Part shown: positions 30,001 through 36,000 of the stretch, in pieces
Numbering within the stretch: position 1 is the stretch's first letter
Layout of the letters: each line of letters begins with the position of its first letter
Source: Sphyrna mokarran
Taxonomy: Eukaryota
NCBI GenBank assembly: GCA_024679065.1
Contig: JAGIQG010000008.1
Coordinates: 82,770,001-82,834,000, forward strand
DNA length: 64,000 bases
Reading direction: 5' to 3'
Made by a program: the position numbers

Positions 30001-33000
30001 ATGGACTGCTTCATTATCAGAAAAATTAAGAATGTAGTTGAACAATATGCAATCATTAGTGAATAGTGCTACTGATGGAAAGGTTACTGATGAAGAAGCT
30101 GAAGATAAGTGGATCTAGAACACTCCCCTGCAACAGTAATCTATGGCTACCATGATTGCCTGCCAATATTCACACCTGCCTTCTTTTGTACTAGATATGA
30201 CTCCAACCATTGAAGAGTTTTCTTCTTGATTCCTATTGACTTCAGTTTTACCAGGGCTCCTTGATGCCTTGATACTCGGTCAAGATATTAAGGATAACCA
30301 CTTTCACTTTGATCCAAATTTGGACAGAATGTTTGTTCCAGATTCCAATCACTCTCTCAGTGAAAAAAAATGCTTCCTCACATCACTTTTCCTTCCTTGT
30401 GCCAAATATTTTCAACCTGTACCCTTTAATTCTTGATGCTCTCTTGAGGGGTAACAATTTCTCAATCTTTGCCCTGTGCACACCTCTCAGGATTTTAAAT
30501 ATCTCTATAAAATTCCCTCCCCCGCCTTCTTTTCTCCAGAGAAACAGTGCCAACCTCTCCAAGGAGAGTAAAACGTATTATCATGTTATTTAAAAATAAG
30601 ATTTGTAAAATATACAGAAAAAAAATAAAAAATTCAGAATGTCAGTAATGTACATAAAGGTCTGAAGTTGGCTTAAATCAGTTCAGTGGTCATAGTTAAC
30701 CATCAATTGCGTTGAACTACAGAGAACAGATTTGTTCCTGATCAGTTTCATTCTGTGTTTCCTGTGGGAGAGTGCAGGTGGATGGTTAGACCACGCAAGA
30801 GGGCTTGTAATTGATAGTCACGGTGTTGCATGAAGAATATAGTCAATTTCAATAATTGATTGACAGTCCATTTAGCTGTGTGGCATTAGTACACAAAAGC
30901 TTGGTAACTCTTTCAGCCCTGAACACAATAATATTCCAAGTGTACAATGAGATGGCAGGACTGGACTCAGCCAAAATCTCCCCCCCTGATTGAACAGCTA
31001 GCCAACGCCATTAAGAATGGTCATCTGGATAAGTGTCTTATAGGTTGGCACACATGTAATTGAACCTCTACAAGAAATATCACTTTCACCAAAGGCAAGG
31101 AAAGAAACAAAGACCAAGGTGTCCCCTGGACATTGCCACTTTGTCTCTTGGGCAGTGCCAAGGGGTCAGACTGGCTTGGCCAAATTGGCAATCCCAGTGT
31201 TGGTTTAGCTGTGTGGCATTAGTGTACAAAGGTTTGATGCAAAGGCAAGGGGTGATTGTCCCAGCCTGCTGAGCAGCTCCAACAGCACAGCAGGTCAGGT
31301 GACATCAGCAGAGGCTATGTAGCGAGCTTCGCACTGAGTGTCATAGCCTTGGTACACTTCTGGCCACTGGACTAAATTATTTAAATTAGAATTTGCATCC
31401 CATTAGGGGGCCCATGACTGAAGTCTCTGGGCCTGCTAGCGTCTCCCTCCTCACCCTGTGCCAGGAGTGTTTTACTCTCGTGGGTTTATAACAGTTTCCG
31501 ATAGCAGGGAGCTGGCAGCCCAACCATGCTGGAGTAAAGGGTGGGCCTTCAGGCCCACCCCCCAATGAGGTCGAAGGTAAATGGATGGTGTTCCCTGGGC
31601 ATTGCCAGTCTGGCATTGTCACCCTGGCCCCATGGCACTGCCCAATGGATAAAGTAGCAATGTCTGGGGGTATCTTGCCCACCTGGCACCATCTTGGGGC
31701 AGTGGGAGTGGGGATGACCCACTTCCATTGTGCATTTGGGATCGTAGGCAGAAGGAGGGAGGACAGTAATTGGGGCTGGCCATAGGGGGTTGAGGGGGTG
31801 CGGGGGGGGGATGGTCGAATCAGAAGATCAAGACTGCCAAGAGAGGAATCAAGGCTAGCCTGGACATATCCAGAAGGCCAAAGATCAACCGTAGTGGGAT
31901 GGGAGGGGCAGCAATGTGGGGTCGCTGGGCTGGCCAGTGATTGGGAGGTCAGCAGTGTGGGGCTACTACACACACACCGATCATGGCGCTGACAGATCAG
32001 TACATGTGCAGTGACTGGCACAGCGCTATGCTGCCAGTTTCTCCAGTCGGAATAGTTCCTGTCCCTGGCTTTTCATTAAGGTTCATACTGGTATTCTCTG
32101 TGATGCACACAGTGTCAGAGATACATTTTGAAAATCTATTTTGTTTTACACAAATTCCAAACTTAAAAAATTTTTTTTGGGGAGAATTCCACCCATTTCT
32201 GGGTTAAAATGTGCTGAATAATTTAATTACTAAATATCAATGCAATTTCATGTTTTTGCCATTGGATGTCACTAATGCATTACATTTTGAAATCATGCTG
32301 AAGTCAGTTGGAGATGAAACCGTATCCACTGGCAGATCTGAAATCCAGTACTGGATTCATCAAAGTTGGATGCTAGAAATGAAACAGAAGTCCAGTTGAT
32401 AGTACTTCAAACAGTTGTGCTCATTACATGGCTCATTTTACCTTTGCTAGAACTGACATATATTCATACTCGGGGAACTGTCCTTTACAAATGAAAAGGA
32501 TATGTCTCATTCTTGTGCCTTTCTTTTTGAACATATAGTTTCGCTGTTGTTTTCTCTATGACAATGGCCAAATTGTGAACCAATCAACATCTTTTTCTTC
32601 TGTAGTATAAATTGCCACAATGGTTTGAAGTTTGGCATTCAGGCATTTGTCCTGATGAATGCAAGACAAAAAGCTTCGGCAAATGTCTCTCTGTTCAGCA
32701 ACATCAAAATTCTTTACTACCAAGCAACAGTAGCCTACATGTATTATGAACACTATTGTCTCTCTGTGAATTAATGACAACCATTCAATTACAAGATTCA
32801 GCTTCTAAACAGACAATGGAGCCTGGATTGTAATTTGGGACAGTAGTCTTCAGGACCCAGGGGTGTGGCAAATTATCCTAATCCCAGGCCTGAGAGATTT
32901 TTAACTCCGGGAGTTAAACCTAGTCACATTTCTGCCCCCAAATAAGCAGAATTGGCACCTATACGGACTGCAATGTTATGTGGAAGGAGCATGCTGTTGG

Positions 33001-36000
33001 ATAATACAGAAATAACCCTGAAAATTCAAGACATCATCAGAATTTGTGAGCCCTGCATCATAACAGGCAAAAACTGAACTTTTGGGAATAGAGCGGCATC
33101 ACGGTGGGTTGGTCCCAAGGGTGCTTTTCATTGCTTGTTCACCCAGCATCTGTTGGGCCAGAAAGCTTAAAATAACAAGTGAATTTTGCTGTCCTATTAT
33201 GCAATGCCATTAGAACCTCATGATTAAATCGTTTGTGTTTTACCATACACATTGTGTTTCCCAGGGTTATTTCTGTATTATCCAACAGCATGCTCCTTCT
33301 ACACAACATTGCAGTCCGTATAGGTGCCAATTCTGCTTATTTGGGGGCAGAAATGTGACTAGGTTTAACTCCCAGAGTTAAAAGGCCCAACAAATCTTGT
33401 AATCCCATGCAGGAATAGTGAAAGTTGTTTTTATGATAAATAAAGCCAGGATCATTTATCAATGACAGTCATTTAAGAATTTGAGATGTTTCCTTGGGAA
33501 ACAAAATATTCCATTCAACAAGCATATCTCATTCTGATTAACTTAAAAGCACCCATCATTCACTATGACTGCAGGCCTACAGGCAGCAATCACTAATTTC
33601 TGCAATTTTACTTCTGCTTCACTTCTGATCGTTAAGATAAATTCTATGGAATCTTTGTAGACATTTATTTAAACTTAAGTGTGATTGCATTTTGGTGATC
33701 AGTTATGTAATCAGTAATATTATCATTGCAGATTTGGGCCTTTTCTTGTACATTATATTCACAACTACTGATTTGGCTGAATATTGTTTCTTTTCCAGAT
33801 ATGCCACTGCAATAAGAACATTTTTCCCATTGTTTAAAAAGAGAAACTGAACTTATTGTATTGACCCCAATGACCCTTGAACTAGAAGCCAGGACAATGA
33901 ATGGCCTTTTACTTGGGGTGATCAGCAAGATGAAATTTGACTGATAGTACACATGCGAGACACACCGTCATGTAAACAGTCCAAGTTCTGTGTAGTCTGC
34001 AGCCTTTGTAAAGTCTGTGAGCAAGGTGCATAAAGACTCATGGTTGTTGAGGCCTTTATTTTGGTGAAGTCTGAATAAGGTCTCAAAAGACTGGAATGGA
34101 GCCAGAAATTTGGCAGTGAAAGCAGGATTCACTGTTGCAGGTGGAGTGGATTAATCAACCACTGAAGACTATGTAGGAATGGGCACCAAAGTGGCTGACT
34201 GAAGCATCCACCTCTGTGTAAGTTATTCAGAGACTTGGTAACATACAAACCAAGGGGGAATTTTACCACTTTAAAGTCCTGTCATGGAACAGCCCAATTT
34301 AAGATTTTTCAGTCAGGGGAGTTGGCATAGAACAGACAAATTTGGGGTAATTATTTATACTTAAAAAAAGTTTCTTTTATCTTATCTTTTCTTGTGAGAT
34401 ATATATACACAGGACACACACCAAGCATTTTCTCCTTCGGGAAAGTTATCTTCCCTTTTCATATCAAATAAAATTGTTTCATCATTATTTGAGAGTATCC
34501 GGTAGTGTCAATCATTCCAGTTATAAATGGAGTACTGCAACGAACCTAAATGAAACTCCACAAGGGACTCTCACACCCTTAGATAACCATTAGCAGCTGC
34601 ACCACTTTAACCACCGCATGGACAAAATTTCACATTGCATAGTTATTTTTCTGAAATATAATTTCTCTGAGGGTCAAACATAATTGTAAACCATTTCTCC
34701 CTTGCAGTTCTCAAGCCTCTCGAGTGCAATAACTCCTCCTGCATATTCATCATATTCTGTATAAATCACTTGAACCCTTTGATTACATTATAGCCTCCAA
34801 GGTGTCAATTTGTATTTGCATCAGTTGTCTGATGTAGTCACTTGTATATAATCTGCAGGGAAAACTTGCTCCAGAATGGATTCATGCAATCCACATTCTT
34901 TAGGATGAATTGATTCCACAGTTTTCTAGCAAAGGTTTTGTCATTCACCCTAATAAGGATGGAATAAAACAACTGAAAATGAATTGAGAAACTTAGCGAA
35001 TCCTAGTCATTTATCAGCCTTACCTTCAAACAGGAATGTCTCATTCCAATGTGGGTTTAAATTCTTTCTTTTCACCTTCGTTTCTAGCTTGTGTTTTTTG
35101 TCAGGGAGCAGGTAGATTTTAACGAACGGATCACTGGTACCACTAAAGTCCTTTGCTGGCAGCTCTACAGCCTTCATTATTTTAACAGTGAAGGTGGACT
35201 CCTGGAAATTGTACCCGACACTGAACTGAATACGGCCCAGATTCTCACGTGAGCTTCCTTCATGGTCGTCCTCAGAACCTGGTGACAGCTGGAAGAAACG
35301 AAATACAAATGCTTAGTTCACAGGCTTCACCTGTAGACTCACATGTGGTTCTGAATTCCTGACATGCTTCTCTAGGTTCTGAAGTAAATATAAGTTACTG
35401 AAAGAGTTTGTATGGGCCCTGAAATTTCATTCCTATGCCTCGCTGCTTTTAAGATGTCTTACACTTGTCCTAAATTTGGTTCAGTGTCAAACTCTACTTG
35501 TTAACACTTGCAAAACATTTTAGTATGTTAAATTATATAAATACAACAGCGTTTTGCACAAGGTATTTATTTGAACATATGGTTCTTGACACTGACTTCC
35601 AGTTACTTTCATTCTTGGAAACGTGGTATTGTTTTTGATCACATATTATCAGTGAGAGAAAACAAACACAAAAGAACCACACAGCAATAAATTCAATCGG
35701 GTAAGCTTAGACAGTTTCAACACAATGTGAACATGAGTCCACAAAACAAAATGGTCACTCATTTGGCAATAATTTGTGTTGATTTCTTATCGTATTCTTG
35801 ATGATCACAGAATGGTTGATATTGACATTGAAAACCACTTCAACAAAGATCAAAGAACAAAACAGCACGGGAAACAGGCCGTTCGGCCCAACGACCCCAT
35901 GCCAACACCCCAATGTTCCTGCTGCAGTGAGAATTGGTGAGTCCCAGTCACATTGTTGGCGAAGCAATAGTGGAAATTTTCCATCCTACCACTCTATACT

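What the first reader, a model, noticed from the sequence alone, without database searches (positions are those of the whole stretch)
32899..33383. Near-perfect 122-bp inverted repeat with palindromic outer ends in the intron splitting SYT7 C2A
Seen: arms 32899-33020 and 33262-33383 differ at only 3 positions (32908/33374, 32978/33304, 32982/33300), all transitions. In the SYT7 sense (minus) strand two of these become G.U pairs. Every other repeat in the window is visibly far more decayed, and I saw no other copy of the arm or the 241-bp spacer here. Inference: this is either a very young long-TIR non-autonomous DNA element, a recent fold-back duplication, or a hairpin kept homogeneous by selection or arm-to-arm conversion. 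In the pre-mRNA it would form ~120 bp of dsRNA about 1.6 kb downstream of the C2A exon donor, a plausible ADAR or Dicer substrate in a neuronal gene.
Basis: partly seen in the sequence, partly recalled or inferred. Interest (0 to 1): 0.7.

Follow-up and report, generated by a model that had tools for sequence, protein, structure and literature searches.

The report
Transposon-like hairpin in shark SYT7 intron
A 485-base stretch with two almost identical 122-base inverted arms sits inside an intron of the synaptotagmin-7 gene of a shark or ray; it looks like a small, fairly young, non-coding jumping-gene remnant, which is an ordinary kind of thing.

Summary
The arms are 32899-33020 and 33262-33383, and 119 of 122 positions are complementary. 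The three differences are transitions at the stated positions. The spacer is 241 nt and both arm tips are palindromic. The repeat is far beyond chance: its longest exact run is 69 nt, against 12-15 nt in 20 shuffles. It has no other copy in the 64 kb.

It lies 1,640 nt into a 13,654-nt intron that splits the C2A domain of an elasmobranch, non-human SYT7.

My best reading (confidence 0.6) is a MITE-like non-autonomous DNA transposon of unknown family:
- It is 485 bp with sharp edges and no coding capacity.
- Its tips are structured, and TTAA (or TA) sits at both ends inside a T-rich/A-rich site.
- Because that duplication is palindromic, it cannot be told apart from the repeat itself.

Genome copy number, the decisive test, could not be checked, because no eukaryotic DNA collection was on hand.

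Nothing supports selection on the hairpin. Two G·U pairs out of three transitions is what chance gives, and both strands fold equally well. In the pre-mRNA it should form about 120 bp of dsRNA, a plausible passive ADAR substrate, but this is untested. Interest is low to moderate.

The parts
32899..33020 (.). Left arm of the inverted repeat (candidate left terminal inverted repeat), 122 nt
   Evidence: 119 of 122 positions complementary to 33262-33383
33021..33261 (.). Spacer or internal region, 241 nt. It is unique in the window, non-coding and has no special fold of its own.
   Evidence: no other copy, best foreign E 0.29; z +0.75, 154 of 200 shuffles fold at least as well; its ORFs have no family and no real relatives
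33262..33383 (.). Right arm of the inverted repeat (candidate right terminal inverted repeat), 122 nt
32900..32918 (.). Palindromic tip of the left arm: perfect 9-bp stem around one central base, holding a CpG
   Evidence: one of only 7 such loci in 64 kb; shuffles mean 1.38, maximum 5 of this kind
33364..33382 (.). Palindromic tip of the right arm, 8 of 9 stem pairs. The lost pair is the 32908/33374 difference, where the CpG of the left arm reads TpG-type here.
   Evidence: CpG at 32908 in the left arm, none at the mirror site
32901..32904 (.). Outer TTAA, with TA at 32902-32903 inside it: candidate target-site duplication, left copy. It is preceded by TT.
   Evidence: TSD scan; flanks
33378..33381 (.). 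Outer TTAA, with TA at 33379-33380: candidate target-site duplication, right copy. It is followed by AA.
32915..32918 (.). Inner TTAA of the left tip (mirror at 33364-33367). It is an alternative, less parsimonious element boundary.
   Evidence: offset 19
21370..35023 (-). Host intron of SYT7 that splits the C2A domain, 13,654 nt. The element begins 1,640 nt after the donor.
   Evidence: Boundaries are inferred from GT/AG motifs and from where the match to solved SYT7 C2A stops and resumes.
35024..35288 (-). SYT7 exon encoding the first half of C2A (5' end inferred from a pyrimidine tract plus AG)
   Evidence: C2, E 1.3e-19, profile 2-59
21200..21369 (-). SYT7 exon encoding the second half of C2A (3' end inferred from a GTAAGT donor)
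   Evidence: C2, profile 59-104

Best explanation
The 485-bp stretch is a single insertion of a MITE-like, non-autonomous cut-and-paste DNA transposon. It has very long terminal inverted repeats (118-122 bp, depending on where the duplication is drawn), and its family and superfamily are not identified.

Inferred mechanism: a transposase encoded elsewhere bound the structured, palindrome-tipped ends, excised the element and inserted it at a TTAA (or the TA inside it) within a short T-run/A-run site in the SYT7 intron. Since then the arms have picked up three transitions, one of them by CpG decay in the right tip.

Today it is most likely inert. Because it is transcribed as part of the 13.7-kb intron, it should fold into about 120 bp of near-perfect dsRNA with a 241-nt loop. 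That would make it a passive target of ADAR hyper-editing, removed with the intron and with no effect on the SYT7 protein.

Shown here: the anatomy, the significance, the host-gene context and the lack of coding or known RNA family. Inferred: mobility, the target-site duplication, the age and the editing.
For: 1. Size and shape fit the working definition of a MITE: under 800 bp, terminal inverted repeats and no coding capacity (passages of PMC5199201). The element is 485 bp with 122-nt arms at 97.5 %. Its three ORFs have no Pfam family and no real relatives.

2. The repeat ends abruptly on both sides: 3 of 24 outward and 3 of 14 inward positions pair.

3. The outer ends are structured. A perfect 9+1+9 palindrome lies exactly at the left tip. 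Only 7 such loci exist in 64,000 bases, so one at the very edge is about a 5-in-10,000 coincidence (my arithmetic).

4. TTAA, with TA inside it, lies at both ends and is flanked by TT on the left and AA on the right. This is the layout expected after insertion at a TTAA or TA target. TTAA occurs only 459 times in 64,000 bases.

5. No duplication of 2-12 bp of any other kind is present at or near the edges.

6. The arms are far less diverged (2.5 %) than every other repeat in the window (12-40 %), as expected of one late insertion.

7. One of the three differences is a CpG-to-TpG-type change that breaks the tip palindrome in the right arm only. That is ordinary neutral decay.
Against: - Only one copy is seen. 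There is none elsewhere in the 64 kb, and copy number in the genome, a defining feature of a transposon family, could not be measured.
- The candidate duplication (TTAA or TA) is itself palindromic and lies inside the inverted repeat, so it is not independent evidence.
- The termini fit no superfamily signature that I could test. They read CT...AG (outer boundary) or AC...GT (inner boundary). Neither is the RR...YY of Kolobok (passage of PMC9587614) nor the CCC...GGG that I recall for piggyBac.
- No DNA-transposase domain occurs in any of the 233 stop-to-stop ORFs of 62 aa or more in the window.
- The element is not AT-rich relative to its surroundings: arms 42.6 % and spacer 40.7 % G+C, against about 38 % for 32001-34000.
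- DNA transposons are a small part of cartilaginous-fish repeats: 86.68-97.78 % of repeats are LINE and LTR, and Tc1/mariner makes up 0.14 % of shark genomes (passages of PMC12361510).
- A 55-aa ORF of the right arm had no candidate among proteins of 30 to 97 residues in the 5.8-billion-cluster protein set. A 64-aa ORF spanning arm and spacer gave only 3 marginal, unrelated hits among 1.84 billion representatives. This is weak evidence, since such ORFs are rarely predicted.
Confidence: 0.6

Rival explanations
1. One-off local inverted duplication, not a mobile element. A replication or repair template switch copied a 122-bp segment in reverse orientation 241 bp away. The palindromic tip acted as a stall or switch point.
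For: Only one copy is seen in 64 kb. No non-palindromic target-site duplication is present. No transposase is nearby. No relatives turned up in the protein sets. DNA transposons are scarce in cartilaginous fishes.
Against: Classical fold-back priming puts the short palindrome at the centre of the new repeat, not at its outer ends as here. This mechanism is recalled, not tested. A random duplication has no reason to end exactly at a TTAA inside a T-run/A-run site, nor exactly at one of 7 palindromes in 64 kb. No microhomology is seen at the inner junctions.
Confidence: 0.2
2. A hairpin kept nearly perfect by selection or by arm-to-arm gene conversion, because the dsRNA has a role in the SYT7 pre-mRNA. 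Possible roles are a source of small RNA, an ADAR recruitment or decoy site, or a splicing regulator. Its origin may still be a transposon.
For: The arms are 97.5 % alike while all other repeats in the window are 60-88 %. All three differences are transitions, and two keep pairing as G·U in the sense strand. The host is a neuronal gene, and editing targets neural genes preferentially (summary passage of PMC9989829).
Against: Two of three G·U on a given strand has probability 0.5 by chance. Three of three transitions is also unremarkable. The antisense strand folds almost as well (-286.5 against -291.6 kcal/mol). The spacer has no structure of its own. There is no Rfam family. The element has no complementarity to the flanking C2A exons, so it is not an editing-site complement. 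The CpG decay that breaks one tip looks neutral. The abstract start of PMC12553114 says vertebrates lack long miRNA hairpins.
Confidence: 0.07
3. Assembly artefact: a chimeric or fold-back read was built into the consensus.
For: Nothing in the sequence speaks for it. It cannot be excluded without reads.
Against: Fold-back read artefacts as I recall them give long arms with little or no unique spacer. Here there are 122-nt arms around 241 nt of unique sequence, three arm differences, sharp edges and unique flanks on both sides.
Confidence: 0.04

Closest known systems
MITEs of TTAA-targeting superfamilies (piggyBac-type; also Kolobok and, as recalled, Sola2)
   Same: Small size and no coding capacity. 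TTAA lies at both ends and the site around it is T-rich and A-rich. TTAA duplications for piggyBac and Kolobok are stated in passages of PMC5199201 and PMC9587614.
   Different: The arms (118 bp inside the TTAA) are much longer than the short ends I recall for piggyBac. The termini read CT...AG, which is neither Kolobok's RR...YY nor the CCC...GGG I recall for piggyBac. The TTAA is part of the inverted repeat, so it is unproven as a duplication. No family copies were seen.
Tc1/mariner-type MITEs with TA duplication
   Same: TA lies at both ends in a T-run/A-run site. Tc1/mariner is the commonest MITE superfamily in insects (passage of PMC5199201). It is present in cartilaginous fishes and expanded in skates and rays (passages of PMC12361510). 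As I recall, long inverted repeats occur in some Tc1-like elements.
   Different: The termini do not resemble those I recall for Tc1/mariner or pogo elements. No transposase remnant is present. Tc1/mariner makes up only 0.14 % of shark genomes.
Intramolecular inverted repeat pairs in introns as ADAR substrates (for example inverted Alu pairs in human transcripts)
   Same: Two nearby, little-diverged inverted copies lie in one transcript. The element meets the operational dsRNA criterion of PMC9989829: at least 80 % identity over at least 50 nt within 4 kb (methods passage). Here it is 98 % over 122 nt. Pairs of Alu are a major editing target according to the abstract start of PMC526178.
   Different: Here both arms belong to a single element rather than two independent insertions. 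Editing has not been observed, because no RNA data were on hand.
Hairpin-RNA or long miRNA precursor loci
   Same: A long, near-perfect stem that would be transcribed.
   Different: No Rfam match. A 122-bp stem with a 241-nt loop is far from canonical precursors, and the abstract start of PMC12553114 says vertebrates lack long miRNA hairpins.

Membership tests
MITE (non-autonomous class II element) | Terminal inverted repeats | tested here: met
   122-nt arms, 119 of 122 complementary
MITE (non-autonomous class II element) | Length under 800 bp | tested here: met
   485 bp. The criterion comes from a passage of PMC5199201.
MITE (non-autonomous class II element) | No coding capacity | tested here: met
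   The three internal ORFs (49, 55 and 64 aa) have no Pfam family. There was no candidate and only 3 marginal unrelated hits.
MITE (non-autonomous class II element) | Target-site duplication flanking the inverted repeats | tested here: inconclusive
   A scan of boundary offsets -3 to +20 and lengths 2-12 finds only TA and TTAA. Both are palindromic and lie within the repeat. The 9- and 11-nt imperfect hits are the tip palindrome itself.
MITE (non-autonomous class II element) | Several copies in the genome (families with fewer than 3 copies are discarded in PMC5199201) | not testable with these tools
   No eukaryotic DNA collection was on hand. There are 0 further copies in the 64-kb window. 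There were 0 hits in the bacterial and archaeal genome contigs, which says nothing about this genome.
MITE (non-autonomous class II element) | High A+T content | tested here: not met
   Arms 42.6 % and spacer 40.7 % G+C, against 37.9 % for 32001-34000
piggyBac superfamily | TTAA target-site duplication | tested here: inconclusive
   TTAA at 32901-32904 and 33378-33381, but it cannot be told apart from the repeat
piggyBac superfamily | Termini 5'-CCC...GGG-3' (recalled, from no call) | tested here: not met
   The termini read CT...AG after the outer TTAA, or AC...GT after the inner TTAA
Kolobok superfamily | TTAA duplication with termini 5'-RR...YY-3' (passage of PMC9587614) | tested here: not met
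   CT...AG or AC...GT
Tc1/mariner superfamily | TA target-site duplication | tested here: inconclusive
   TA at 32902-32903 and 33379-33380. It is palindromic and lies inside the repeat.
Any DNA-transposon superfamily | Sequence relation of the ends to an autonomous element that encodes a transposase | not testable with these tools
   No DNA-transposase Pfam domain in 233 of 233 ORFs of 62 aa or more in the window. The genome at large was not searchable.
ADAR substrate (intramolecular dsRNA) | Reverse-complement pairing of at least 50 nt at 80 % identity or more within 4 kb in a transcribed region | tested here: met
   122 nt at 98 %, with arm starts 363 nt apart, inside a SYT7 intron. The criterion comes from a methods passage of PMC9989829.
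ADAR substrate (intramolecular dsRNA) | Clustered A-to-G differences between RNA and DNA | not testable with these tools
   No RNA data
Known RNA family (miRNA and others) | Match to an Rfam covariance model at its gathering score | tested here: not met
   0 matches in the whole window at gathering score. In 32500-33800 there were only two chance-level matches: U3 at 13.2 bits against 34, and mir-392 at 18.8 against 62, the latter outside the element.

The most novel reading that the evidence does not exclude
The hairpin is not a decaying insertion. It is a single-copy structure shared by related elasmobranchs, with its arms kept alike by arm-to-arm conversion or selection. Its roughly 120-bp dsRNA stem would then act within the SYT7 pre-mRNA of neurons, for example as a built-in ADAR recruitment or decoy site or as a source of small RNAs. 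The evidence here neither shows nor excludes conservation.
Probability: 0.05. Interest if true: 0.65.

Novelty: new member of a known kind. Interest (0 to 1): 0.25.

Why it matters
If the transposon reading is right, this is one more small DNA element in an intron. Two points give it mild interest. First, cartilaginous-fish repeats are dominated by LINE and LTR elements (passages of PMC12361510), so an element only 2.5 % diverged between its arms may mark fairly recent cut-and-paste activity. Second, long arms tipped by a TTAA-bounded palindrome are an unusual end structure, and describing it could help define a family. It also gives a clean, testable ADAR substrate in a neuronal gene of a lineage with little editing data. 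It would matter more only if the hairpin proved to be conserved.

Tried and rejected
- Longer flanking direct repeat (32869-32889 against 33391-33410). It looked like a decayed long duplication but is not significant: 71 of 1000 random positions in the window score as well with 60-nt flanks.
- Relation to the older imperfect inverted repeat 31115-31197 / 31595-31677. None: alignment scores to the arm are 7-8.
- Editing-site complement for the C2A exons. There is no complementarity between either exon and the element.
- Rfam at gathering score and at E up to 10. Nothing credible.
- Family copies through proteins. The 55-aa arm ORF had no candidate among proteins of 30-97 aa. The 64-aa arm-plus-spacer ORF gave 3 hits at E 2.4e-4 to 9e-4, with 25-31 % identity, in proteins of 840-1026 aa whose domains are unrelated. 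I judged these to be chance.
- The 28-mer of the arm in genome contigs gave 0 hits. That collection holds only bacteria and archaea, so this says nothing about the source genome.
- The same 28-mer in the paper library gave 0 papers.
- Literature on a SYT7 intron hairpin. In one search none of the 8 listed papers (of 1,393 holding 3 of the 4 terms) contained SYT7. I did not page further.
- Long ORFs near the element as SYT7 exons or transposase (31389-32072, 48961-49731, 62538-63053, all minus strand). They have no Pfam family and no similarity to a 672-aa catshark SYT7.
Repeat libraries in supplements of elasmobranch genome papers might hold this family, and I could not see them.
- The spliced SYT7 model was searched exon by exon only. 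The joined step was left out.

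
Full report
**What is there**

The window holds an inverted repeat with arms at 32899-33020 and 33262-33383.
- Base by base, 119 of 122 positions are complementary.
- The three differences are at 32908/33374, 32978/33304 and 32982/33300, and all are transitions.
- Between the arms lie 241 nt.
- The repeat stops abruptly. 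Only 3 of the next 24 positions outward and 3 of the next 14 inward are complementary.
- The outer 19 nt of the left arm (32900-32918) are themselves a perfect palindrome, a 9-bp stem around one base.
- The mirror tip (33364-33382) has lost one stem pair through the 32908/33374 difference. At that position the left arm has a CpG and the right arm the deaminated form.

**More than chance, and alone in the window**

- The longest exact inverted run within 2 kb is 69 nt. It is 12-15 nt in 20 shuffles and 16 nt in the rest of the real window.
- Sensitive blastn of arm, spacer, whole element and 500-nt flanks against the window finds no other copy of arm or spacer. The best foreign hits have E = 0.9 and 0.29.
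- A 28-mer of the arm with up to three mismatches occurs only in the two arms.
- The other repeats of the window are a SINE-like family with a tRNA-like head and retroelement pieces. They are 60-88 % alike, and the long ones at most 83 %. The element is thus by far the least decayed repeat here.

**Context**

- Two halves of one C2 domain lie at 35007-35309(-) and 21125-21469(-). Both match solved synaptotagmin-7 C2A best.
- The first exon ends at 35024 before a GTAAGG donor. The second starts at 21369 after a pyrimidine tract and CAG.
- The intron is 13,654 nt, and the hairpin starts 1,640 nt after the donor.
- The first exon's 87-aa peptide is 98-100 % identical to SYT7 of catsharks, a sawfish and skates. 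It is 92 % identical to a chimaera and 93 % to the human row (1271 of 1315 candidates at E <= 1e-20, 120 listed).
- I therefore take the window for an elasmobranch, not for human. Shark against ray is not resolved.
- The exons were searched one at a time, and the joined model was left out.

**What the element is not**

- It encodes nothing recognisable. Its three ORFs (49-64 aa) have no Pfam family.
- One ORF had no candidate in the 5.8-billion-cluster protein set among proteins of 30-97 aa.
- Another gave three marginal hits among 1.84 billion representatives, to long proteins with unrelated domains.
- It matches no Rfam family.
- The spacer has no fold of its own: z +0.75, and 154 of 200 shuffles fold at least as well.
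- Neither arm nor spacer is complementary to the neighbouring C2A exons.

**The ends**

- A scan of boundary offsets and duplication lengths of 2-12 finds no direct repeat flanking the structure.
- The exceptions are TA (32902-3 / 33379-80) and TTAA (32901-4 / 33378-81), with a second TTAA 14 nt further in on each side.
- Outside the outer TTAA stand TT on the left and AA on the right.
- If the element inserted at a TTAA (or TA) inside a short T-run/A-run site, the palindromic duplication and these two bases would simply lengthen the apparent repeat. The true inverted repeats would then be 118 bp (or 119 bp).
- That layout is what a TTAA- or TA-targeting cut-and-paste transposon leaves.
- Because these duplications are palindromic, they cannot be separated from the repeat, so the test is inconclusive.
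- Independent support comes from the tip palindrome. Only 7 loci of that quality exist in 64 kb (shuffles mean 1.38, maximum 5). One sitting exactly at the edge is about a 5-in-10,000 coincidence (my arithmetic). This argues for a structured terminus rather than a randomly placed duplication boundary.
- A reading in which the inner TTAA is the real boundary needs a pre-existing 34-bp palindromic target, so it is less parsimonious.

**Which superfamily**

- Kolobok makes TTAA duplications but has RR...YY termini (passage of PMC9587614). The termini here are CT...AG or AC...GT, so that signature is not met.
- The CCC...GGG termini that I recall for piggyBac are not met either.
- Tc1/mariner (TA; passage of PMC5199201) remains possible.
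- No DNA-transposase domain is present in any of the 233 ORFs of 62 aa or more in the window. Only C2 exons and reverse-transcriptase or RNase H pieces were found.
- The superfamily stays open.

**Age and selection**

- Three differences in 122 is 2.5 % between the arms, or about 1.2 % per arm if they were identical at insertion. One of the three is CpG decay.
- I have no measured rate for this genome. At an assumed 0.5-1 x 10^-9 per site per year (my assumption, from no call), that would be roughly 12-25 million years.
- Every transition makes a wobble on one strand and a mismatch on the other. Two G·U out of three on the sense strand therefore has probability 0.5.
- The sense and antisense RNAs fold equally well: -291.6 kcal/mol with z -23.8, and -286.5 with z -20.8.
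- Nothing in the sequence points to selection on the RNA.

**Likely behaviour**

- As part of the intron, the element should form about 120 bp of near-perfect dsRNA with a 241-nt loop.
[quoted passage not shown] The operational criterion in that study is at least 80 % identity over at least 50 nt within 4 kb, which the element easily meets (passages of PMC9989829).
- Pairs of inverted Alu play this part in human transcripts (abstract start of PMC526178).
- Passive hyper-editing in neurons is therefore the most likely molecular consequence. This is inferred, not shown.
- miRNA-type processing is unlikely (abstract start of PMC12553114).

**What stayed open**

- The decisive measure is copy number and the orthologous site in related genomes. 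It could not be taken.
- The only DNA collection open was bacterial and archaeal (0 hits).
- DNA transposons are a small share of cartilaginous-fish repeats (passages of PMC12361510). This lowers the prior for the transposon reading a little, and would make a young family mildly notable.

**Verdict**

| Reading | Confidence |
|---|---|
| MITE-like non-autonomous DNA transposon of unidentified family | 0.6 |
| One-off inverted duplication | 0.2 |
| Maintained functional hairpin | 0.07 |
| Assembly artefact | 0.04 |

The feature is real and accurately described. It is ordinary in kind and of low to moderate interest.

Noticed in passing
window 13598-13886, 19013-19160, 42885-43210, 44122-44445, 46023-46364 (inverted), 50941-51116, 53514-53847, 54508-54723, also 10516-10708 and 16583-16706: A SINE-like repeat of about 300-350 bp with a tRNA-like head is the dominant repeat of the window. 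It occurs in both orientations at 60-83 % identity. ARAGORN calls no tRNA in it and Rfam matches nothing.
   Followed up: partly
window 11853-12627 (+), 50604-50819 (-), 57579-57887 (+): Fragments of LTR-type retroelements: RVT_1 and RNase H-like domains. The 257-aa ORF at 48961-49731 (-), just downstream of the 50.6-kb RNase H piece, has no Pfam hit and is not SYT7. It may be the tail of the same element.
   Followed up: partly
window 31389-32072 (-): A 228-aa open frame rich in Pro, Ser and Thr lies 0.8 kb from the hairpin, in a locally G+C-richer stretch (0.459 for 30001-32000). It has no Pfam family and no similarity to SYT7. It overlaps an older imperfect inverted repeat, so it is probably a chance frame in an old repeat.
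   Followed up: partly
window 31115-31197 and 31595-31677: A second, much older inverted repeat: about 77 % complementary, with about 400 nt between the arms. It is unrelated in sequence to the 122-nt arms.
   Followed up: partly
window 9321-9608 (-): A further C2-domain exon (E 1.3e-20, profile 22-89). By position it is presumably part of SYT7 C2B.
   Followed up: no
window 32580-32747: The left flank holds an old dispersed repeat with decayed copies at 28745-28891, 38877-39021 (inverted) and 37121-37258, at 62-68 % identity. It ends about 150 nt before the element, so it offers no empty-site comparison.
   Followed up: no
window 11057-11074, 6443-6462, 8333-8352, 31540-31559, 58390-58410, 58725-58744: Six other perfect short palindromes with 9-bp stems. 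Their count is above the shuffle mean: 8 rows against a mean of 1.38 and a maximum of 5.
   Followed up: no
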